This document shows, one piece after another, positions 3,144 through 58,035 of a stretch of 64,000 nucleotides of DNA; within the stretch, counting starts at the first letter, position 1, and every line of letters starts with the position of its first letter. The DNA is from a virus (Duplodnaviria > Caudoviricetes): positions 32,001 to 96,000 of IMG/VR virus record IMGVR_UViG_3300001528_000208; one strand, given 5' to 3'. The notes under the pieces were generated by a model, which had not been told where the DNA came from, did not search any database, and worked only from the letters and a program-made list of their open reading frames with translations. The position numbers and the translations under genes are program-made.

Positions 3144-5203
3144 TGGGACAGTATCGCCCGTCAGGGCTTATCCCTTCGACGTTGACATCGGACTATACCA
3201 TTGACGCGACTGTTGCCAATGACTTCCGCTGTAGAATCAATGGCACAAGCCCTACAACTAAATATCAGTTAAAAATCATGAAGAATGACGCCGCATCTAC
3301 CGCCGTGTATGATAGCGGCGTCGTTACTTTAGATACGCCGCTTTACCCCGTGAACTATGACGGGACGCAGAACGAATTAGTCGTAAGCGTCCCCGCCAGT
3401 TCCACGATGGAAAACGGCAACGAATACAAGTGGACTATGACTTCGTATTGGTCTGATGAAGATAAATACGAATCGTATGAAAACGTATTTAAGGCGTATG
3501 CCGCAGCGACTATTTCAATCACCAACTTTGTTGATGTTATGACCACCCGTTCGTATACGTTCACCGCGTCTGTCACACAGGCACAGGGTATTGGCGTGGA
3601 ACGTTTTGGCTGGATTATCCGCAACAAAGATACTGGCGAAGAAACCGTAAATACCATTGACGAAAACAACATCTATTCGTCTGATATTCGCGTTTCTTAT
3701 GATGGTTTCCTTAGTGGAACCACAGAAGAAATCAAGGTGAAATGTTGGTTGAACGATGGCACAAGTGTAGAAACGCCATTTAAGGAATTTTCTGTAAGTT
3801 ACCAGTTGGTAACTTTTGAAAATCTTGTTAACACTGAAATTAGAAGCGATTCTGGTGTTGATATAAAGTGGAATAAGCTTAGTTATATTGACGGCGAAGC
3901 AACTGGAACTAACTATGAATATATACAAGACGACCGCGAAGGATATAGCCATAAATATATTCATATTAAACAGGGCGAAACCGTTAAGTTTGATACGGTT
4001 AATACGGCGCAAATGGCGTTCCCGACATCTACTTCGCACGTTGTTGGTTTTTGGGTTGATGGTTCTAATAATAGCATATATAAAGCTACTGGCGTAGATT
4101 CCAATGGTAACCCGTATTATATCGAATTAAAGTCAACCGCATCTGATATTATTCTGAGTGTTAATGGAAGTGAAACTACGCTGTTTTCAAAAACCGTTAT
4201 ACAGAAATGGTTTACTGTTGTAATTGAACCGAAGCGGGTATATGGCATTGAATGGTCTGAAGATGCACCAATTTATCCAAGAAACGACCTTTATCCAAAC
4301 GATAATATGTATCCTCGCTATGTTATTAGCCCATTTGTGAAAACATATTCCAATGTCGATATTGACGATGGTGGAACATGGAGTTCTATTACTACGTCTG
4401 GCGATGTTCTTATGCGATATATTTGGGTTGAAGACCGCGCGATTGCTGATTTGGACATTGAATATCTTAGTAGCATAAACAATCTTCCTATTTGGGATAA
4501 TGAAACTCTTATGCTTGCCGTCTTTAATGAAAATTTCCGCGCTGGTAATATTGAGTCTGATGTACCTGTTACCGGTTGGATTGTTTATAGTATAGAAAGT
4601 GGGTCATCTTTCCTGAAGCCGGTTCTTTCTGTTGGTGCCACTGTCAGCGGTTTCACCGACTATACCGTTAGAAATCAAACCGGAACGATGTACTACGTTT
4701 TTCCAGTGTTCGGCGATAAGATAGGTGCGTCTGCATCTTCTGATATCGTAACACCAAATTGGTGGGATTGGTCGCTTATTGTTTGTGACAAGGTTGACAA
4801 CGATACGTATTATCAAAGCAAAACATATCAGTTTGACCTTGACGTTTCTTCTGGAAGTATGTCCAACAACACGACATTTAATGAACTACAGAATTTTACC
4901 AAGTATGCAAAGGTTCAAAATTCTCCGTCTAACTATTGGTCTGGTACACTTTCCGCGTTTATTGGAAATTGTGGATTGATCTATAAGGATACTGTTGACC
5001 AAATGAATGAACTAAAATCGTTAACGACAGATAATCGTGACAAGTTCTTAAAAGACCGAAAGGGCAATATGTGGAAAGTTCGCCTCAATTCTGCTGTAAG
5101 CGAGAAAATGACCGATGAATACGTTGAACAGGCTGTTGTTGTGACGCTTGGTTGGATGGAAATTGGTGATGCTTCGAATACTGTTATAACAAATAAGATG
5201 TAA
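3143..5203 (+). CDS. Phage tail structural protein (beta-rich, 686 aa)
   Basis: Coupled to the upstream gene (TAATG). Carries an IYPRNDLYPNDNMYP repeat motif of the kind seen in Firmicutes phage tail proteins. Confidence 0.6.
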   Translation: MGQYRPSGLIPSTLTSDYTIDATVANDFRCRINGTSPTTKYQLKIMKNDAASTAVYDSGVVTLDTPLYPVNYDGTQNELVVSVPASSTMENGNEYKWTMTSYWSDEDKYESYENVFKAYAAATISITNFVDVMTTRSYTFTASVTQAQGIGVERFGWIIRNKDTGEETVNTIDENNIYSSDIRVSYDGFLSGTTEEIKVKCWLNDGTSVETPFKEFSVSYQLVTFENLVNTEIRSDSGVDIKWNKLSYIDGEATGTNYEYIQDDREGYSHKYIHIKQGETVKFDTVNTAQMAFPTSTSHVVGFWVDGSNNSIYKATGVDSNGNPYYIELKSTASDIILSVNGSETTLFSKTVIQKWFTVVIEPKRVYGIEWSEDAPIYPRNDLYPNDNMYPRYVISPFVKTYSNVDIDDGGTWSSITTSGDVLMRYIWVEDRAIADLDIEYLSSINNLPIWDNETLMLAVFNENFRAGNIESDVPVTGWIVYSIESGSSFLKPVLSVGATVSGFTDYTVRNQTGTMYYVFPVFGDKIGASASSDIVTPNWWDWSLIVCDKVDNDTYYQSKTYQFDLDVSSGSMSNNTTFNELQNFTKYAKVQNSPSNYWSGTLSAFIGNCGLIYKDTVDQMNELKSLTTDNRDKFLKDRKGNMWKVRLNSAVSEKMTDEYVEQAVVVTLGWMEIGDASNTVITNKM

Positions 5204-5211
5204 GGTGGTGA

Positions 5212-6477
5212 ATGCCATTGGCGTTTCCTGACGATTATAGTGAATATCTTTCTCTGCTTAAGACTAACTGTAGATATGCCATCAAGCTTGAGTGGGTAAA
5301 CAACGATGGCACCGCCTATGCTGAAATCACAAGTTCGTATGTTGATATGTCGGGCACGCTTTCCGTTGGCATGGAAAATGGAACGCGTCGAACTGCCGAT
5401 ATCGAGCTTGACAATACGGATGGACAGTTCTCTGTTGACGTATATGGCATGTGGTATGGCAAAATGGTAAAGTTGTGGATGGGCGTATATCTGTCTGATG
5501 GTGAACCGTACTACTTCCCGCAGGGCGTGTTCTACGTCAATTCTGTTGAAGAAACAAATGCGCCAGCACAGCGAATCGTCACGTTGCATCTGATTGATAA
5601 GTGGTGCTTCCTTGACGGCACGATGTGGGGAAATCTTGACGGAATCTATATTGTGCCAGTCGGTTCCAACATCTACGACGCGCTGACAAAGTTGCTGAAG
5701 ACTTCGCGCTTCACTGGCGAAAACGTGGACGATAAGGGCGAACCGCAGACAAACGCCGTCGACCCGATTCAGCCCAACCTTGCGTCTTATTATATCACCA
5801 AGGAATATGAAGAAGCTGGGTCGAAATGGAAAGCAATCAACACACCGTATGAAATTCGTATGGAATACGGCAAGACGTATGCTGACGTGTTACTGGAATT
5901 CGCGACCATGCTTGGTGCATATATCTACTATGATGTTGACGGACGCCTGACGATTGAACCCACGCAGGATGATATTGTTGATAGTTCGAAGCCTATTCTG
6001 TGGACTTTCACGCCGAATGAACAGGAATTTCTATCGGAAGATTCAACGCACGACTTCGGAACATTCTATAACGACATTATCGTAATTGGGTATACCACCA
6101 ATGGCAAGCAGGCGAAGGGGCGTGCGCAAAACACGAATACTGCGTCGCCAACTGCAATTCCGATTGTTGGTATTAAGACGTATCCGCCCTACGAGGATAC
6201 CGCGTACTATACCGACGACCAGTGCAACGAACTTGCGCAATACTACTTGAAGCGCCAGACGATTAAGCAGCGTAGTGTTGTAATCACATCGGCGCCCATG
6301 TTCCATTTGCGTGAAAACCGCTTGATTGAATGTGTGCGTCCGTATACATCTAATAAAGAAGCGTTGCTGATTAGTGGTATAGACCTGCCGATTGGTTCGA
6401 CTGGAACAATGTCAATCACGGCGACTTCTGTAAATGAATTTGATTTTGGAGGTGCGGAATCCAGTGGAGAATCCTAA
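5212..6477 (+). CDS. Tail/baseplate hub-like protein
   Basis: RBS AAGGTGGTG; position in the tail module; YYDVDGRLTI-type motif. Confidence 0.55.
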   Translation: MPLAFPDDYSEYLSLLKTNCRYAIKLEWVNNDGTAYAEITSSYVDMSGTLSVGMENGTRRTADIELDNTDGQFSVDVYGMWYGKMVKLWMGVYLSDGEPYYFPQGVFYVNSVEETNAPAQRIVTLHLIDKWCFLDGTMWGNLDGIYIVPVGSNIYDALTKLLKTSRFTGENVDDKGEPQTNAVDPIQPNLASYYITKEYEEAGSKWKAINTPYEIRMEYGKTYADVLLEFATMLGAYIYYDVDGRLTIEPTQDDIVDSSKPILWTFTPNEQEFLSEDSTHDFGTFYNDIIVIGYTTNGKQAKGRAQNTNTASPTAIPIVGIKTYPPYEDTAYYTDDQCNELAQYYLKRQTIKQRSVVITSAPMFHLRENRLIECVRPYTSNKEALLISGIDLPIGSTGTMSITATSVNEFDFGGAESSGES

Positions 6478-8562: not shown

Positions 8563-8786
8563 CGATAGTATTGGGTTAATCAAAAACTTCTTGAAAGTTT
8601 TACGACCCTTATTAAAGGAGAAGCATTTCCCGTGAAGGTGTATTCCTTCCAAAACAACCCCGCGATACTGTTGCACGGACGCTTCTTGCATGGTCGAAAG
8701 GCAAATTCGATTTCATGTGTAACAGTTATGCAAGTAATCTATGCGGGATTGGTTATACCAAGTCTTGTACACGGGGTATTTTATTT

Positions 8787-9956
8787 ATGAATAGTGCGCA
8801 AAGACACGAATTTCGATATTATAGGCGTAAAGAAAAGCGTCTTTCGAAAAAGATTAAACGATGCGAAGCTATCGGTGGAATAGATGGTGTATTTACATTT
8901 GGCGATTTATATAAATGCGGCAAAGCGTGCTGTAATGGCGTTCGGTGGAAGCATAGTGTGCAAAATTTCGAAATGCACTTGTTTTCAACTACGGTTAAAT
9001 CGTTGGCTGACGTAAAGAACGATAAATGGGAAAGCAACGAATATTTCAGATTTGTTTTAACGGAACGTGGTAAAACACGCGATATTGATGCGCCCAAAAT
9101 TGTTGACAGGCAAATCCATAAAGCTATTACGCGAAACATTCTTTTGCCGTTATATACACCAATGATGATTTACAATAATGGGGCAAGTCAAAAAGGAAAG
9201 GGATTCCACTTTAGCTCAAATGAACTGAAGAAAGATTTGCGTGAACATTTTAGGAAGTATGGTCGTGAAGGTTGGATACTTCTAATTGATTTCAAGAAAT
9301 TTTTTCCAAACGCAAAACACGCAAATATATACAATAATCATGAAGAATTAATTTTTGATGAAAGATTGCGTAGATTGTGTGATTATGTTGTTGGATTTAA
9401 CAATAATTCTGGATTTGGTATGCCGCTTGGCGTAGAACCAAGTCAAGCGGAAATGATTTTCTTCCCATGGAAACTTGATTGCTATTTAACGTGCCAATGT
9501 GGATTTAGTGGATGCGGTCACTATATGGATGACTATTATATTATAATACCGCCAACGATGAATCCGCATGATGTTCGTGCGAAAGTATTATCTTTTGCCG
9601 AATCGCTTGGAATAAGAGTAAATCGCGATAAATCATACTTCGTTAAACTTACAAAATCGTTCCGATATTGTAAAATACGATATCGACTTACGGATACTGG
9701 TGCCGTTAAAACACTTGGTAGTAGACCTGCTTATAGGCGAGCTGCAAGGAAAATTCGTGCATTTAAACGCATGGTGGACGAAGGCAAAATGAAATATGAG
9801 GATGTCTACTGTTCTATGAATTCTATAATATCGTATTTCGATAATTTCGACGACAATAACCGTTCTTTTAGATTGAAACGATTGTTTGTTAAAACGTTTG
9901 GATTTAAATATGACGACCTAATGACATTTAGAAGGAGGGATTTCTATAATGTATAA
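8787..9956 (+). CDS. DGR reverse transcriptase (alternative start 8715)
   Basis: DFKKFF, GVEPSQ (DGR-type SQ) and YMDD motifs; adjacent to the TR and avd. Confidence 0.95.
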   Translation: MNSAQRHEFRYYRRKEKRLSKKIKRCEAIGGIDGVFTFGDLYKCGKACCNGVRWKHSVQNFEMHLFSTTVKSLADVKNDKWESNEYFRFVLTERGKTRDIDAPKIVDRQIHKAITRNILLPLYTPMMIYNNGASQKGKGFHFSSNELKKDLREHFRKYGREGWILLIDFKKFFPNAKHANIYNNHEELIFDERLRRLCDYVVGFNNNSGFGMPLGVEPSQAEMIFFPWKLDCYLTCQCGFSGCGHYMDDYYIIIPPTMNPHDVRAKVLSFAESLGIRVNRDKSYFVKLTKSFRYCKIRYRLTDTGAVKTLGSRPAYRRAARKIRAFKRMVDEGKMKYEDVYCSMNSIISYFDNFDDNNRSFRLKRLFVKTFGFKYDDLMTFRRRDFYNV

Positions 9957-10750: not shown

Positions 10751-11938
10751 ATGGCGACTGATAATATAGCGCGCGGTTTAGCCGCGCACGCCCTGTCGGT
10801 TGCTGTTGCTGGCGGTGGCGACCACCCCGTTGAATCCGTAAACGGCAAAACCGGTAAGGTTAATCTTACCGCCGCAGATGTTGGCGCTGAACCCGTTGGT
10901 TCCGCCACTAAGTTCGTCATCAACCTGACCGAAGACGTCGAAAACGGCACTTATGCCGCCGACAAGACGTGGGCGCAGATTAAAGTCGCCTATGAAGGTG
11001 GAAAGGTTTTAGCTGTCCATATTGGAAGTAGCGAGTTGCCCATGATTAACGGACAGATTTCTGATGGCGCCGCTGGGTTCACGTTTGGTTACACCAATAT
11101 CATTGCAGATGGAACCGCTGTTCACACGCGCGCAATTCACTACCTGTACACGGATTCTGTAGAAACTTGGGAAGACGCCGACGCAGAAGGCGAATATCTT
11201 CCTGTTTCTGGCGGCACTATGGCGGGCGCACTTCTTCTTGCTGCCGACCCCGTCTCTGATACTGGTGCTGCGACAAAGAAATACGTAGATGACCGTCGCT
11301 TCAAAGTGACATTCCAGCGCGACCCCGTCGCCGGTCTGAATGCCGACCATTCCTTTGCGGACATTTCTGCCGCTGTCACGGACAACAAAAACGTTGTTGC
11401 GGTACTTGATAACAACGAATATCCGCTGACGTATGAATCTGAAAAGGTTCATGTTGATGGCGTTGCGCCGCTTTATATCGGTTCCACAATCGAAGCGTCT
11501 GGCACTAATGGTGCGCGTCTGACTGGCACGACATCTGGCGATGCAGCCTTCGTGAAGGCAGACACGCAGGCGGATTACATTCCTGTTTATGTTGGTACGC
11601 CGACTGCGCCTAATCACGCCGTTAATCTGGCGTATCTTGCACAGGAAGTCAAAGACGATTCTGCCACCAAGAATCATGTTTCTGTTGCCAAGAATGCGGC
11701 AATCACTATTGGGCTGACAGATGGCGTCTATTTTGTTTCCGCCTGTGATAGCATTCATCGCGGTCTTTCCGTGGTCTATATGTGCGGTTCCACTACTACC
11801 ATTTCCGGTCTTAGTGGTATGGCTGGCTGGGAGGTTACCAAGGGTGGTGTTGACAACAGCCTTTATATTAACAACAAATCTGACGCAGCTGCACTCGAAG
11901 TCTATATTGTTGCTATTGGCGCTGGTTCTGCGTATTAA
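10751..11938 (+). CDS. Tail fiber-like protein
   Basis: VESVNGKTGKVNLTAADVGA, YLPVSGGTMAG and AATKKYVD motifs. Confidence 0.75.
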   Translation: MATDNIARGLAAHALSVAVAGGGDHPVESVNGKTGKVNLTAADVGAEPVGSATKFVINLTEDVENGTYAADKTWAQIKVAYEGGKVLAVHIGSSELPMINGQISDGAAGFTFGYTNIIADGTAVHTRAIHYLYTDSVETWEDADAEGEYLPVSGGTMAGALLLAADPVSDTGAATKKYVDDRRFKVTFQRDPVAGLNADHSFADISAAVTDNKNVVAVLDNNEYPLTYESEKVHVDGVAPLYIGSTIEASGTNGARLTGTTSGDAAFVKADTQADYIPVYVGTPTAPNHAVNLAYLAQEVKDDSATKNHVSVAKNAAITIGLTDGVYFVSACDSIHRGLSVVYMCGSTTTISGLSGMAGWEVTKGGVDNSLYINNKSDAAALEVYIVAIGAGSAY

Positions 11939-40571: not shown

Positions 40572-41808
40572 GATATCCGCTATGCTTTAGCATAGTCGGC
40601 AAAAGAAAGAGAACTATATCGGAAAGGAAGTGATTGTAGATATGTTGATTGCCTACAAATATAGAATGTATCCAAATGAAGAACAGAAAACTTATTTTTC
40701 AAAATGCTTCGGTTGCGTCAGATTTATCTACAATCGTATGCTTGCTGATAAAATCGAGTTTTACAATAAGACAAAACAAAACCTGAAAAATACGCCAGCC
40801 CAATATAAAGACGAATTTCCATGGCTTCGAGAAGTCGATGCGCAAGCGTTGTCAAATGCTCAGATGAATTTACGGACAGCGTACAACAACTTCTTCAAGC
40901 GACCAGAAGTTGGGTTCCCAAAATTCAAAAGTAAGAAAACGCGATATGATTCTTATACTACAAATCAAGCCAATATCCGCGTGACAGAACGACACATTAA
41001 CCTTCCGAAAATTGGACTTGTCAGGATTAAGAAACACAGGAATTTTTTTGGAACAATCAAACACGCTACCATTACAAGAACGCCATCGGGAAAATATTAT
41101 GTTTCGGTTCTTGTTGAACAAGAAGATATTCCAAAGAAAATTCCATGTGATTCTGAACTTGGAATAGATTTGGGAATCAAGGGGTTCGCAACCACTTCTG
41201 ATGGCAAAGTGATTGAAAATCCGAAATACTTGAAAAAATCAGAAAAGAAACTGCGGAAGTTGCAGAAAGACTTGTCTCGTTGTAAAAAAGGAAGTAAAAA
41301 TCGAGATAAATGTAGAATTAAAGTTGCACGTTGTCACGAGAAAATAACGAATCAACGCAAGGACTTTCTAAACAAACTTTCAAAAAGACTGATTGATGAA
41401 AACCAAGTCATATGTCTGGAAACATTGAAAGTTAAGAATATGATGAAAAATCATAAACTCGCTAAGTCTATTGCTGATGTATCATGGTCAGAATTTGTAC
41501 GACAACTGGAATACAAAGCAAACTGGTACGGAAGAGAAATTGTGAAAATTGATTCGTGGTATCCAAGTTCGCAGTTGTGTAGTAAATGCGGATACAAAAA
41601 TACAGAAATAAAGGATTTGTCTGTTAGAGAATGGGTGTGTCCGCAATGTGGAACTGTTCACGATAGAGACATTAACGCTGCAATAAATATTCTTAATGAA
41701 GGATTGAGAATAAGAACCGTAGGAACTACGGGGATAGCCTAAGTAAACTTGTCTCGTTAGAGATATTGATTAGGAAGCACCGGTGCTTTATCATCGTGTG
41801 TAGTTCAC
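40572..41808 (+). mobile_element. IS200/IS605-family (IS1341-like, tnpB-only) element; boundaries approximate
   Basis: Subterminal hairpins share a TGCTTTA core (40580-40595, 41781-41796). The right end reads GTAGTTCAC, and an omega-RNA-like 3' region overlaps the tnpB end. Confidence 0.7.
40630..41742 (+). CDS. tnpB: TnpB RNA-guided nuclease
   Basis: [29 protein letters not shown] and [11 protein letters not shown] motifs. Confidence 0.95.
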
Positions 41809-49552: not shown

Positions 49553-49628
49553 GGCCCCGTGGTCAAGTGGTCTAAGACTCCGCCCTTTCAAGGCGGCAAC
49601 GGCAGTCCGAATCTGCTCGGGGCTACCA
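49553..49628 (+). tRNA. tRNA-Glu(TTC)
   Basis: Acceptor GGCCCCG/CGGGGCT, anticodon arm CCGCC-CTTTCAA-GGCGG, T-loop TCCGAAT, encoded CCA. Confidence 0.92.
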
Positions 49629-50217: not shown

Positions 50218-50293
50218 GGCGCACTCGTCTAAAGTTAGGATGCCGCCTTCTCACGGCGGAGATAGAAGTTGCAATTCCTTCTGTGCGTCACCA
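50218..50293 (+). tRNA. tRNA-Glu(CTC), atypical T-arm
   Basis: Acceptor GGCGCAC/GTGCGTC, anticodon arm CCGCC-TTCTCAC-GGCGG, encoded CCA, terminator immediately downstream. Confidence 0.82.
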
Positions 50294-56617: not shown

Positions 56618-57235
56618 ATGAATCTGAAAGAATCTTTCCGCTATGCGTCCTACCTTGAAACCCTTGCATCCAACGCTTCTGGAAATCTGCGTCTTTCCAC
56701 ACACGCCCTGACCACAACCAAAATCCATCGCAAGTCTGCTGTTGACCCCGAAGCCAAGGACATTACTGAAACCGTTGACAACGGCGATTTCGTTGCGAAT
56801 AACGACCTTATCCGCTTCTTGCAGTTCGTTATCGCCGAACGCGACAAGCTGGGCAAGGCAATCACCGCCGCGAAGAATAACTGCGGCTTTGACATTGACA
56901 ATGCGGTCGCCGTAAACAAGATGCGTCAGCGCGTTGCCGATGATATCAAGCGTATGCTGTCCTATAAGGCAAGCAAGACCAAGAATATCGCCAATGGCTA
57001 TCGTTTCAACGTGGCTGGCGACCAGACTTCCTATCGCTACGAAGTGGAAATCGTCGACGAAGAAAACTTTGACCGCAAGGCGTCTAAGGCTGTCATGACC
57101 GCCATGCTGGAAGAATCTGATGCGACTTCTGCTGAAATTGACCGTGTTCTTGTCACGACCAACGTTGACTTCATGCCGCATTTTAGTGTGAATGACAGTT
57201 TCGACGATGCTGTTGAATCGTACTTAAAAATGTAA
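56618..57235 (+). CDS. Conserved-looking helical hypothetical protein preceding ncRNA-3
   Basis: MNLKESFRY...YRFNVAGDQTSY.Y; strong RBS AAAGGA. Confidence 0.8.
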   Translation: MNLKESFRYASYLETLASNASGNLRLSTHALTTTKIHRKSAVDPEAKDITETVDNGDFVANNDLIRFLQFVIAERDKLGKAITAAKNNCGFDIDNAVAVNKMRQRVADDIKRMLSYKASKTKNIANGYRFNVAGDQTSYRYEVEIVDEENFDRKASKAVMTAMLEESDATSAEIDRVLVTTNVDFMPHFSVNDSFDDAVESYLKM

Positions 57236-57251
57236 AGCGGGTTTTGCCCGC

Positions 57252-57676
57252 TTGCTTCTGGTGGTAAATTAGCGCGAAACTACACGAAACGCCTGCAAAC
57301 GCGCAGTTTGTAGCACCATAGCGATATGGTCGCTTGTAGAAGTTTGATATGCCACTTAAAATTTTTAAGTGGCGTGGATAATATATACTAAAACAATCAA
57401 AGCCTTTCTGGCTTGCTGAAGGTCGCTTCGCATAACGACATTCACCTAACACAATTACCTGATTCCATTATCCATAAACACGAAACACCACCTGTCGGAC
57501 GGAACATTTATCGCGTAATCACGCAAAGCACCGACCGTCTTGGCATCCTCTGGGCTAATTACCCAGCTCCAATGCTTAATGGATGAAATTGGTAAGTGCA
57601 AATTACCATCTATCAATGCCGATTTATTCGGCACTATTTTCGTGTTCTTTCTGCGGCTTCTTGCCGCCAGAAGCAA
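57252..57676 (+). ncRNA. Putative structured ncRNA-3 (~425 nt)
   Basis: 16-bp terminal helix TTGCTTCTGGTGGTAA/TTGCCGCCAGAAGCAA with two G-U pairs on the + strand; internal hairpins; no credible ORF. Confidence 0.7.
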
Positions 57677-57708
57677 ACGGGTAAACGCCAACTTTAGTGA
57701 GGTGTAAT

Positions 57709-58035
57709 ATGAACATAAATGCAATCAAAGGTGTTATCAGAGAAAATCCGCGCGTCATACTATATTTCGGTTCTGATTGCGAATCGTTCATTGCTGTCAC
57801 TAAGGCAACAGGCGGATTTATCCCAGCCCACATAAAAGGTTACACTGAACTTTGCCTATTGTATGCTAATGGCAAATATGATGGTTTCAACCGTGATGGT
57901 AGCATCGAGTTTTTCAAGATGGATTTTTCTACCAAGACTGCATATTATAAACGTTGGGTCGGACTTAATCGCGACCAAGAAGATGAATGGTTGCTGGTGG
58001 ACTTGTCTCACGAAAGAAGGGCGCGAATTGTATGA
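57709..58035 (+). CDS. Hypothetical protein (IYFG..DG family), C-terminus ARIV
   Basis: Paralog of 61215 and 61532. Confidence 0.7.
   Translation: MNINAIKGVIRENPRVILYFGSDCESFIAVTKATGGFIPAHIKGYTELCLLYANGKYDGFNRDGSIEFFKMDFSTKTAYYKRWVGLNRDQEDEWLLVDLSHERRARIV

What the first reader, a model, noticed from the sequence alone, without database searches (positions are those of the whole stretch)
56618..57681. Hypothetical helical protein followed by a ~425-nt RNA closed by a 16-bp helix: candidate RNP module
Seen: after the stop and a small hairpin, 57252-57267 pairs fully with 57661-57676. The only two non-Watson-Crick positions are G-U on the + strand, which points to RNA-level rather than DNA-level symmetry. 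Internal hairpins include GCCACTTAAAA/TTTTAAGTGGC, CTGGG..CCCAG, TGGTAA..TTACCA and TGCCGA..TCGGCA. A gap this long is unusual in a genome where genes abut. No TTGACA promoter is visible, so it is probably co-transcribed with 56618. Inference: a protein plus ncRNA system of unknown function.
Basis: partly seen in the sequence, partly recalled or inferred. Interest (0 to 1): 0.75.

Follow-up and report, generated by a model that had tools for sequence, protein, structure and literature searches.

The report
New helix-closed large phage RNA family
The gene-free stretch behind this phage gene encodes a real folded RNA of about 430 bases whose two ends zip into a very long helix; the same gene-plus-RNA pair recurs in about a hundred uncultured gut and rumen phages, matches no catalogued RNA family, and has an unknown job.

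Summary
57252-57267 pairs with 57661-57676 (14 Watson-Crick pairs plus 2 U-G on the + strand). It is the core of a composite closing duplex of about 50 pairs.

The 474-nt gap (57236-57708) lies in a 104.8-kb phage genome, is single-copy, has no coding frame and matches nothing in Rfam 15.

All 99 related loci with enough downstream sequence carry the same module. A 203-215-aa acidic protein gene ("F0") is followed about 10 nt after its stop (or after an inserted 93-aa ORF) by a 346-594-nt RNA. A 34-64-pair duplex closes the RNA, and the next start codon follows a median 24 nt later.

Covariation is strong. In the closing helix plus H1, 27 of 29 pairs show compensatory changes. The GNRA-capped hairpin H2 is 98% paired with all 6 pairs covarying. 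G-U pairs outnumber C-A mismatches 123 to 21, which points to a + strand RNA.

The RNA is most likely co-transcribed with F0 and isolated or excised through its terminal duplex (inferred, RNase III-like). Binding to F0 is untested, and F0 is acidic.

Some relatives carry RtcB, Rnl, Pnkp-Rnl1 and tRNA genes beside the module; this genome does not.

Verdict: a credible new family of large phage RNA whose function is open.

The parts
56618..57235 (+). F0: 205-aa acidic alpha/beta protein gene of unknown function, always directly 5' of the RNA
   Evidence: ORF with an RBS. No Pfam hit; the only PHROG hit is weak (E 0.007, an unknown-function family). The family has 350 hits at 90% clustering and 980 clusters at 50% identity. 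The N-terminus MNLKE(S/A)FRY is invariant apart from one S/A position. AF2 pLDDT is 95. The best fold match is 3kdq_A, Z 11.9, of unknown function. pI is 5.3.
57236..57252 (+). P0: small GC-rich hairpin right after the stop (GCGGG-TTTTG-CCCGC), terminator-like; its 3' arm can also pair with the RNA's 3' end
   Evidence: RNAalifold pairs 57237-57250 with 57678-57698 as an outer extension of the closing duplex. The same three-part arrangement is seen in distant relatives.
57252..57289 (+). P1 5' strand: P1a 57252-57268, P1b 57271-57279, P1c 57282-57289
   Evidence: Covariation across 21 loci is.
57295..57311 (+). H1 hairpin with pentaloop GCGCA (family consensus RCGNA)
57312..57334 (+). H2 hairpin capped by the GNRA tetraloop GCGA (A-GCGA-U), the most conserved motif of the family
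   Evidence: At least 8 different stems with the same loop. All 6 pairs covary and 98-99% of cells are paired. The covariance model R1 hits the window only at 57279-57336.
57342..57632 (+). Variable core: H3 57349-57375, H4 57400-57414, H5 57422-57439, H6 57493-57545, H7 57550-57566, H8 57567-57584, H9 about 57592-57609, H10 57618-57632. Two invariant long-range helices are also predicted (57342-46/57475-79 and 57376-82/57467-73).
   Evidence: RNAalifold on 9 close relatives gives 133 predicted pairs, 10 of them with compensatory changes, in H2, H3, H7, H9 and H10. The two long-range helices never vary, so they are unsupported.
57638..57676 (+). P1 3' strand: P1c 57638-57645, P1b 57648-57658, P1a 57660-57676
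57678..57698 (+). Outer extension of the duplex, competing with P0; the RBS (GAGG) follows, and the ATG of the next gene is at 57709
   Evidence: The median distance from duplex end to the next RBS-preceded start is 24 nt across loci.
57709..58035 (+). Downstream 108-aa gene. It is conserved only in the close clade; other clades carry different genes or tRNAs here.

Best explanation
57236-57708 encodes, on the + strand, a structured non-coding RNA of about 430-450 nt (about 57243/57252 to 57676/57686). It belongs to an uncatalogued family that sits directly 3' of a conserved about 205-aa acidic protein gene (F0) in uncultured phages of gut, rumen and wastewater samples.

Shown here:
- The element is real, is read on the + strand and occurs once in the genome.
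- Its ends form a duplex of 34-64 pairs.
- Two 5' hairpins (H1 with an RCGNA pentaloop, H2 with a GNRA tetraloop) are conserved with abundant compensatory changes.
- The linkage to F0 holds in both directions.

Inferred:
- There are only about 10 nt between the upstream stop and the duplex, and about 24 nt between the duplex and the next start codon. There is therefore no room for a promoter or terminator, so the RNA is made as part of the F0 operon transcript.
- The terminal duplex acts as a processing and insulating stalk, like the stalks that flank rRNAs and are cut by RNase III.
- Processing would release a stable folded core. It would leave the F0 mRNA ending in hairpin P0 and free the downstream ribosome-binding site.
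- The core then acts in trans, possibly with F0 or with the RNA-repair and tRNA functions that neighbour the module in part of the relatives.

My odds: 0.9 that it is a selected + strand RNA structure, about 0.45 that it is excised as a discrete stable RNA, and about 0.2 that F0 binds it.
For: - Fold: z -7.3 on the + strand against -5.3 on the minus strand.
- Close relatives (protein 81-89% identical) keep the gap at 90% nucleotide identity. Indels are not multiples of 3, and 10 pairs show compensatory changes.
- All 99 of 99 F0 loci with at least 520 nt downstream have the long-range duplex. Median dG is -61 kcal/mol against -45.5 in control coding DNA. The longest helix with at most one mismatch has a median of 27 bp against 16 bp.
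- Closing helix plus H1: 27 of 29 pairs have changes on both sides, and 93.9% of cells are paired against 75.4% when shuffled and 40-48% when slid.
- H2: 6 of 6 pairs covary and 98% of cells are paired.
- Strand: 123 G-U pairs against 21 C-A/A-C mismatches. Model R1's significant matches (E below 1e-3) are all on the + strand, one per locus, at the expected place in 47 of 70 non-redundant loci, 31 of them outside the seed.
- Geometry: stop to duplex has a median of 10 nt, and duplex to next start a median of 24 nt. There is no + strand promoter.
- Reverse linkage: a 24-nt P1 motif hits 7 IMG/VR contigs, and all 7 carry F0.
- The downstream gene varies (GP88, others, a tRNA array 9 nt after the RNA in L006) while F0 is constant.
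- No Rfam family matches.
- Weak hint of RNA-level abundance: in a wastewater 'RNA-Seq cDNA' run, summed contig depth is 100-250 over 57260-57511 (33 over 57512-57595), against 0-15 in the flanking genes. A DNA run is flat at about 2.5 where it is covered.
Against: - There is no direct evidence of a discrete transcript, its ends or RNase III cleavage. The sequencing-run evidence comes from contigs of relatives mapped at 85% likeness, and the tool itself labels that library as probably DNA.
- The core between H2 and the 3' strand is poorly conserved between clades, with 47 primary-sequence clusters among 70 RNAs. This would also fit an element whose main selected parts are the stalk and the two 5' hairpins.
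- Two long-range helices in the window clade never vary.
- F0 is acidic and has no recognisable RNA-binding fold.
- This genome has no RtcB and no PF09414 RNA ligase. The RNA-repair neighbourhood is therefore not obligatory.
Confidence: 0.6

Rival explanations
1. Purely cis-acting intercistronic mRNA element. The giant stalk and its 5' hairpins set the stability, processing or translational coupling of the F0 cistron and the downstream cistrons. This could work through an RNase III site that leaves protective hairpins, or by bringing the F0 stop and the next ribosome-binding site together. There is no trans-acting product.
For: The placement between stop and RBS is tight. The 3' arm of P0 can pair either with its own 5' arm or with the RNA's 3' end, which is a possible switch. 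The most conserved parts are the stalk, H1 and H2, while the core drifts. There is no own promoter or terminator.
Against: A processing hairpin does not need 350-600 nt, yet the length is held in 70 divergent members. GNRA and pentaloop hairpins with conserved loops suggest tertiary or partner contacts. The downstream gene is not conserved and is a tRNA array in L006, so no gene-specific control is plausible.
Confidence: 0.25
2. Ribonucleoprotein, the first reader's idea: F0 binds the RNA (for example the conserved stalk/H1/H2 platform) and the two act as one particle.
For: Gene-RNA linkage is strict in 99 of 99 loci across 30-100% protein identity, and 7 of 7 in the reverse direction. The F0 family is large and well conserved. 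There is precedent for ncRNAs encoded beside their protein partner in RNA-repair operons (Ro60 and Y RNA, PMC4201824).
Against: F0 is acidic throughout the family (pI 4.7-5.8). The confident model shows no known RNA-binding fold, and the best match is a protein of unknown function. Linkage could simply reflect co-transcription behind a well-expressed gene. In about ten of the 69 non-redundant loci a 93-aa ORF sits between F0 and the RNA.
Confidence: 0.2
3. DNA-level element: a replication origin, or a packaging or recombination site built on a large inverted repeat.
For: There is a long inverted repeat and an AT-rich stretch (57378-57398). DnaA-box-like 9-mers are present (TTATCCATA at 57468-57476, which reads TTATCCACA in five of the eight close relatives, and the inverted GTGGATAA at 57375-57382).
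Against: Wobbles are strongly one-sided, with 123 G-U pairs against 21 C-A mismatches. GNRA loops are conserved over covarying stems. The last three positions of the 'DnaA box' vary among close relatives, and the box is absent from other clades. Cumulative GC skew runs straight through the locus, with extremes at about 2.9 and 102.8 kb of the genome. The replication genes lie 20-30 kb away.
Confidence: 0.05
4. Non-autonomous mobile element (MITE-like), with the duplex arms serving as terminal inverted repeats.
For: Long terminal inverted repeats flank a non-coding core. The 5' arm of P0 repeats the sequence of the 3' terminus, which superficially resembles a target duplication.
Against: There is one copy in the 104.8-kb genome. 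The position is fixed 10 nt after the same gene in about 100 divergent phages. The arms covary as an RNA helix.
Confidence: 0.02

Closest known systems
GOLLD (Rfam RF01998) and ROOL (RF03087), large ornate RNAs of phages and prophages
   Same: Large (over 400 nt), highly structured, phage-encoded, of unknown function and often near tRNA genes (PMC12286853). In this family 10 of 60 loci have tRNAs within 1.5-3 kb. One tRNA array starts 9 nt after the RNA, and another tRNA lies 80 nt after it.
   Different: There is no covariance-model match even at E up to 10 (window) or E up to 1 (loci). The architecture differs: a closing duplex of about 50 pairs and a small conserved 5' platform. The RNA is obligately placed behind one protein gene inside an operon. 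No multimer evidence exists.
Processing stalks of rRNA operons, and RNase III sites between phage T7 early genes (from established knowledge, not tested here)
   Same: Sequences flanking a stable RNA pair into a long duplex within a polycistronic transcript. Cutting in the duplex separates the neighbouring RNAs and leaves protective hairpins.
   Different: Cleavage is not shown here. The enclosed RNA is not an rRNA. T7 sites are simple hairpins of about 50 nt without a folded core.
Bacterial and phage Y RNAs (YrlA) encoded beside Ro60, in some species in operons with RtcB (PMC4201824, PMC7790460)
   Same: The ncRNA's 5' and 3' ends form a long stem. It is encoded next to a partner protein gene, and some relatives have RNA-repair genes nearby (RtcB, Rnl, Pnkp-Rnl1).
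   Different: [quoted passage not shown] No Y RNA family match was found, and no Ro60/TROVE hit appeared among the neighbours scanned. This genome lacks RtcB and Rnl.
Small stable RNAs of the phage T4 tRNA gene cluster (species 1/rnaC and species 2/rnaD). This lead comes from earlier finding e1-5824480 and my own knowledge, and was not tested.
   Same: Phage-encoded stable RNAs of unknown function, co-transcribed and processed together with tRNAs.
   Different: They are much smaller, with no long closing duplex and no linked protein gene.

Membership tests
Any Rfam 15 family (including GOLLD, ROOL, OLE, raiA, HEARO, RNase P, tmRNA, 6S, Y RNA, group I/II introns) | Covariance-model match at or near the family's gathering score | tested here: not met
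   There is no match in 57100-57850 apart from two chance-level hits (E 1.2 and 2.6, about 20 bits against gathering scores of 50-90). There is none in the gaps of 8 distant loci at the gathering score, and none at E up to 1 in 6 further loci. ARAGORN finds no tmRNA.
MITE / non-autonomous transposon | Multiple dispersed copies with terminal inverted repeats and target-site duplications | tested here: not met
   blastn of the element against the whole 104,805-bp genome finds only itself and its own inverted arms. The position is syntenic in about 100 phages.
Replication origin | Conserved initiator boxes or iterons, plus a strand-compositional switch or adjacency to initiator genes | tested here: inconclusive
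   The DnaA-box-like 9-mer is not conserved at its last three positions and is absent in other clades. There is no GC-skew inflection at the locus. Iteron-like short repeats occur in some relatives. Skew is a weak test in a phage transcribed in one direction.
RNase III-processed precursor stalk | About 20 or more pairs of near-continuous dsRNA formed by the flanks of a stable RNA | tested here: met
   The composite duplex has 34-64 pairs in 21 loci. The longest helix with at most one mismatch has a median of 27 bp in 99 loci.
RNase III-processed precursor stalk | Staggered cleavage in the duplex that depends on RNase III | not testable with these tools
   This needs RNA end mapping in rnc+ and rnc- cells, or in vitro cleavage.
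Y RNA / Ro60 RNP | Adjacent Ro60 (TROVE) gene and a tRNA-like domain in the RNA | tested here: not met
   Neighbours scanned with Pfam show RNA ligases, SPFH, GP88 and others, but no TROVE. There is no tRNA-like call inside the RNA by ARAGORN or Rfam. Only genes within 3-6 kb were examined.
Protein-coding gene / small ORF | An open frame conserved among relatives, with indels in multiples of three | tested here: not met
   Only ORFs of up to 89 aa lie wholly inside the gap: the two 89-aa minus-strand frames start with GTG/TTG and run into stops when read on, and the + strand ORFs are TTG-started and at most 57 aa. Close relatives differ by indels of 1, 2, 4 and 7 nt.

The most novel reading that the evidence does not exclude
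The RNA is a working part of the phage's contest with host RNA-targeting defences. After its about 50-bp terminal duplex is cut, the two ends stay held side by side in the helix. That is the geometry that nick-sealing RNA ligases use. In the relatives that encode RtcB, Rnl or Pnkp-Rnl1 next to the module, the RNA could be sealed into a circular or otherwise end-protected stable RNA. This would be comparable to archaeal rRNA processing intermediates. Alternatively it could serve as a decoy or scaffold for host ribonucleases and the phage repair enzymes, with F0 as its partner.
Probability: 0.08. Interest if true: 0.85.

Novelty: new variant of a known kind. Interest (0 to 1): 0.62.

Why it matters
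Large, intricately folded RNAs of unknown function are rare, and several of the few known classes (GOLLD, ROOL) are phage-borne and recently proved to form surprising RNA-only assemblies.

This family is well suited to follow-up:
- It is diverse. The F0 protein family has 980 clusters at 50% identity. There are 70 non-redundant RNAs in 47 sequence clusters among only about 100 loci inspected. That is enough for a full covariation-based structure.
- It has a defined protein neighbour that can be tested for binding.
- Its extreme closing duplex makes a clear, testable prediction about processing.
- It occurs in abundant gut and rumen phages. One relative's protein was seen in 860 blocks of the collection.

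Its recurrent placement beside RNA ligases and tRNAs in part of the relatives offers a route to function, in RNA repair or counter-defence.

Tried and rejected
- Cultured phages (INPHARED): no DNA match to the locus and no tblastn match to F0. No cultured host or annotated relative is therefore available.
- Sequencing runs: no RNA holder listed. Only small shares of the sampled words were held. The contigs laid give a weak depth pattern only.
- blastn and nhmmer of the window RNA against distant loci found nothing. Homology of the RNAs rests on architecture, the P1/H1/H2 motifs and model R1.
- A whole-RNA covariance model was not possible, because the limit is 400 columns. MAFFT and RNAalifold could not align the cores of different clades, so the core consensus structure remains unsolved.
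- Internal promoter idea (the GATAAT/TATACT stretch at 57377-57389): no -35 element at a usable spacing and no hit in the promoter scan. Dropped.
- DnaA-box/origin idea: see the rival explanations.
- F0 function: Pfam, PHROGs, PDB sequence profile, Foldseek against PDB and BFVD, VIA-align and the ESM Atlas all gave only uncharacterised proteins.
- The catalogue of about 10,000 candidate viral structured RNAs (PMC10690425) could not be checked, because no supplementary files are held. A fragment of this RNA may be listed there without a name.
- Resemblance of the H1 loop to the YrlA 'GNCGAA' motif was considered and rejected, because the H1 loop is GCGAA/RCGNA without the N.
- An anti-Shine-Dalgarno-like core motif (UUCCACC with a purine tract GAAGA) was noticed. 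It is present in only about a quarter of the clusters and was not pursued.
- Complex prediction was not used, because it cannot take RNA.

Full report
**Setting.** The window is bases 32001-96000 of a single 104,805-bp virus record, 98% complete by CheckV. Genes are packed almost entirely on the + strand. They include tail proteins, a reverse transcriptase, NrdD, a DnaB-like helicase, a DnaE-type polymerase and a TnpB. The polymerase's nearest annotated relatives are a human faecal phage and large Clostridioides phages, at about 40% identity. MAG bins that carry relatives are mostly Clostridia. The host is therefore probably a gut Firmicute, but this is not established.

**The observation.**
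- The gene 56618-57235 encodes 205 aa. After its TAA stop comes a small hairpin, P0 (57237-57251).
- 57252-57267 pairs with 57661-57676 through 14 Watson-Crick pairs and 2 U-G pairs, exactly as reported.
- The minus strand and all + frames are closed or hold only short TTG-started ORFs.
- The 465-nt stretch folds with z = -7.3 on the + strand and -5.3 on the minus strand.
- A 16-bp helix with wobbles is not remarkable by itself. The same scan over coding DNA gives 14-20 bp.
- In this case the helix is the core of a composite end-to-end duplex: P1a 57252-68/57660-76, P1b 57271-79/57648-58 and P1c 57282-89/57638-45. An outer extension also uses the 3' arm of P0. Together these make about 54 pairs.

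**Close relatives.**
- Eight contigs whose protein is 81-89% identical keep a gap of the same length, at 90% nucleotide identity.
- Their indels are 1, 2, 4 and 7 nt long, so the gap is non-coding.
- Their substitutions are compensatory or wobble-compatible in H2, H3, H7, H9 and H10 and in P1.
- The first about 110 nt (P0, the P1 5' strand and H1) are almost invariant.

**Distant relatives.**
- F0 homologues at 30-48% identity were fetched from IMG/VR, GTDB genomes and JGI/ENA metagenomes.
- blastn sees no similarity between their gaps and the window's, yet the architecture is the same.
- In 99 of 99 loci with enough sequence, a long-range duplex starts a median 10 nt after the stop of F0. In about ten of the 69 non-redundant loci it starts after a 93-aa coiled-coil ORF inserted behind F0.
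- The RNA spans 346-594 nt and ends a median 24 nt before the next RBS-preceded start codon.
- Duplex energy has a median of -61 kcal/mol against -45.5 in control DNA. The longest helix with at most one mismatch has a median of 27 bp against 16 bp.
- In the full-length alignment of 21 loci, 27 of 29 pairs of the closing helix plus H1 show changes on both sides. 93.9% of cells are paired, against 75.4% when shuffled and 40-48% when slid.
- About 95 nt into the RNA, a hairpin carries the conserved loop A-GCGA-U, a GNRA tetraloop with variants GCAA and GAGA. It sits on at least eight different stems.
- A 57-position covariance model of H1 plus H2 finds this hairpin pair once per locus, on the + strand at the expected place, in 47 of 70 non-redundant loci at E below 1e-3. 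In the whole 64-kb window it hits only 57279-57336.
- On that alignment H2 is 98% paired and all six pairs covary. The alignment is fitted to the model, but MAFFT alignment A4 gives the same answer.
- Wobbles are one-sided, with 123 G-U pairs against 21 C-A/A-C mismatches in the closing duplexes. The selected molecule is therefore the + strand RNA.

**What it is not.**
- It matches no Rfam family, at the gathering score or at permissive E-values, in the window or in 14 relatives.
- It is not a tmRNA.
- It is not a dispersed repeat.
- It is not protein-coding.
- The replication-origin reading rests on a DnaA-box-like 9-mer and its inverted copy. The critical positions of that 9-mer vary among close relatives, and other clades lack it. 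Cumulative GC skew shows no inflection at the locus.

**Linkage and neighbourhood.**
- F0 is the only constant neighbour. The gene after the RNA is GP88-like (PF17338) in some clades, other unknown genes elsewhere, and a nine-tRNA array starting 9 nt after the duplex in L006.
- A scan of IMG/VR with a 24-nt P1 motif returned seven contigs, all carrying F0.
- Upstream of F0, many distant relatives carry a 155-aa unknown gene. Beyond it lie an Rnl-type RNA ligase, a Pnkp-Rnl1 fusion, RtcB, an ATP-dependent DNA ligase and an SPFH protein.
- tRNA genes lie within 1.5-3 kb in 10 of 60 loci.
- The window's own genome has neither RtcB nor a PF09414 ligase. Its nearest tRNA is 7 kb away. The RNA-repair and tRNA context is therefore a tendency, not a rule.

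**The protein.**
- F0 belongs to a large family, with 980 clusters at 50% identity and 713 at E up to 1e-10.
- Its N-terminus MNLKE(S/A)FRY is invariant apart from one S/A position.
- The AlphaFold model is confident (pLDDT 95): five helices plus four beta strands, two of them forming a long beta hairpin.
- Its only whole-domain structural match is 3kdq_A, a Corynebacterium protein of unknown function (Z 11.9, 145 residues, rmsd 3.4). Next is an uncharacterised Vibrio phage protein.
- The family is acidic, with pI 4.7-5.8. Nothing here shows RNA binding.

**Mechanism.**
- Shown: a selected, single-copy, + strand RNA structure wedged between a stop codon and the next ribosome-binding site, closed by an exceptionally long duplex, with a conserved GNRA/pentaloop platform at its 5' side.
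- Inferred, step 1: co-transcription with F0. There is no room for a promoter or terminator, and no promoter-like site is found.
- Inferred, step 2: the duplex works as a processing and insulation stalk. This is the arrangement known from rRNA precursors and from RNase III sites in phage early transcripts (established knowledge). A cut there would release a folded core of about 350-450 nt with a duplex stub. It would leave the F0 mRNA ending in P0 and expose the downstream RBS.
- Inferred, step 3: the 5' arm of P0 has the same sequence as the RNA's 3' terminus. The 3' arm of P0 can therefore pair with either one. A ribosome terminating at the F0 stop, 1-2 nt before P0, would favour the long duplex. 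This is a possible coupling, not tested.
- What the released core does is unknown. The conserved loops argue for tertiary or partner contacts. The neighbourhood in relatives points loosely to RNA repair, tRNA functions or counter-defence.
- A wastewater 'RNA-Seq cDNA' library shows summed contig depth of 100-250 over 57260-57511 (33 over 57512-57595), against 0-15 in the flanking genes. A DNA library is flat where it is covered. This is only a weak hint, because these are contigs of relatives at 85% likeness and the RNA is better conserved than its flanks.

**Comparison and novelty.**
- By kind, the RNA belongs with the large phage-borne structured RNAs of unknown function (GOLLD, ROOL; PMC12286853). 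It is not a member of either family.
- It differs in three ways: its about 50-pair closing duplex, its intercistronic position and its fixed protein neighbour.
- Earlier notes of this scan describe other helix-closed large phage RNAs in other genomes. None shares sequence with this one.
- I rate it a new variant of a known kind. The structure claim is strong and the functional claims are open.

Noticed in passing
window 8571-8797 and 8715-9956: An RT-2 RNA motif (Rfam RF03077, 104.7 bits) overlaps the start of a 413-aa reverse transcriptase gene (RVT_1; PHROG 1423). Tail-protein genes lie on either side (5212-6477 and 10751-11938). This may be a diversity-generating retroelement of the phage.
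   Followed up: partly
window 40630-41742: A complete TnpB gene (HTH_OrfB_IS605 + OrfB_IS605 + Cas12f1-like TNB, 370 aa) lies inside the phage genome. Its guide (omega) RNA and element ends were not looked for.
   Followed up: partly
window 49553-49628 and 50219-50289: A tRNA-Glu(UUC) gene. About 600 nt further on there is a second tRNA-model hit exactly at the Rfam threshold (29.8 bits) that ARAGORN does not call. It may be a degenerate or atypical tRNA.
   Followed up: no
L028 1-7718 (also L029-L031); L004 4-2229; L009 1412-2494: Abundant relatives carry an RNA-repair-like gene row just upstream of the module: RtcB, an ATP-dependent DNA ligase, an SPFH/Band-7 protein and an Rnl-type RNA ligase with a PHA02142 OB domain, followed by a 155-aa unknown gene, F0 and the RNA. 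Other relatives have a 741-aa kinase-phosphatase-Rnl1 fusion instead.
   Followed up: partly
L002 3658-3939, L008 3654-3929 and about ten other loci: A 93-aa coiled-coil ORF is inserted between F0 and the RNA. The RNA's duplex then starts 10 nt after this ORF's stop instead of F0's.
   Followed up: partly
RNA cores of relatives, e.g. L013 about 3850-3880, L011, L045, L055, L078; window 57400-57425: A recurrent core motif: a short helix GGGA/UUCC followed by ACC, then a purine tract (A)AAGAAGA(U)G. It is the commonest interior 7-mer (UUCCACC, in 12 of 47 clusters). It loosely resembles an anti-Shine-Dalgarno/Shine-Dalgarno pair, and its meaning is unknown.
   Followed up: partly
window 57468-57476 and 57375-57382: DnaA-box-like TTATCCATA (TTATCCACA in five of the eight close relatives) and an inverted GTGGATAA. 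They pair with each other in the predicted fold, and the helix never varies, so the pairing is unsupported and the boxes are unexplained.
   Followed up: yes
genome 99046-99701 (outside the window, about 3 kb past its end): The largest gene-free gap of the genome, 654 nt, was not examined.
   Followed up: no
window 57260-57595: In a wastewater 'RNA-Seq cDNA' run, many short high-depth contigs of relatives pile up on the RNA (summed depth up to about 250-430), while the flanking genes have about 0-15.
   Followed up: partly
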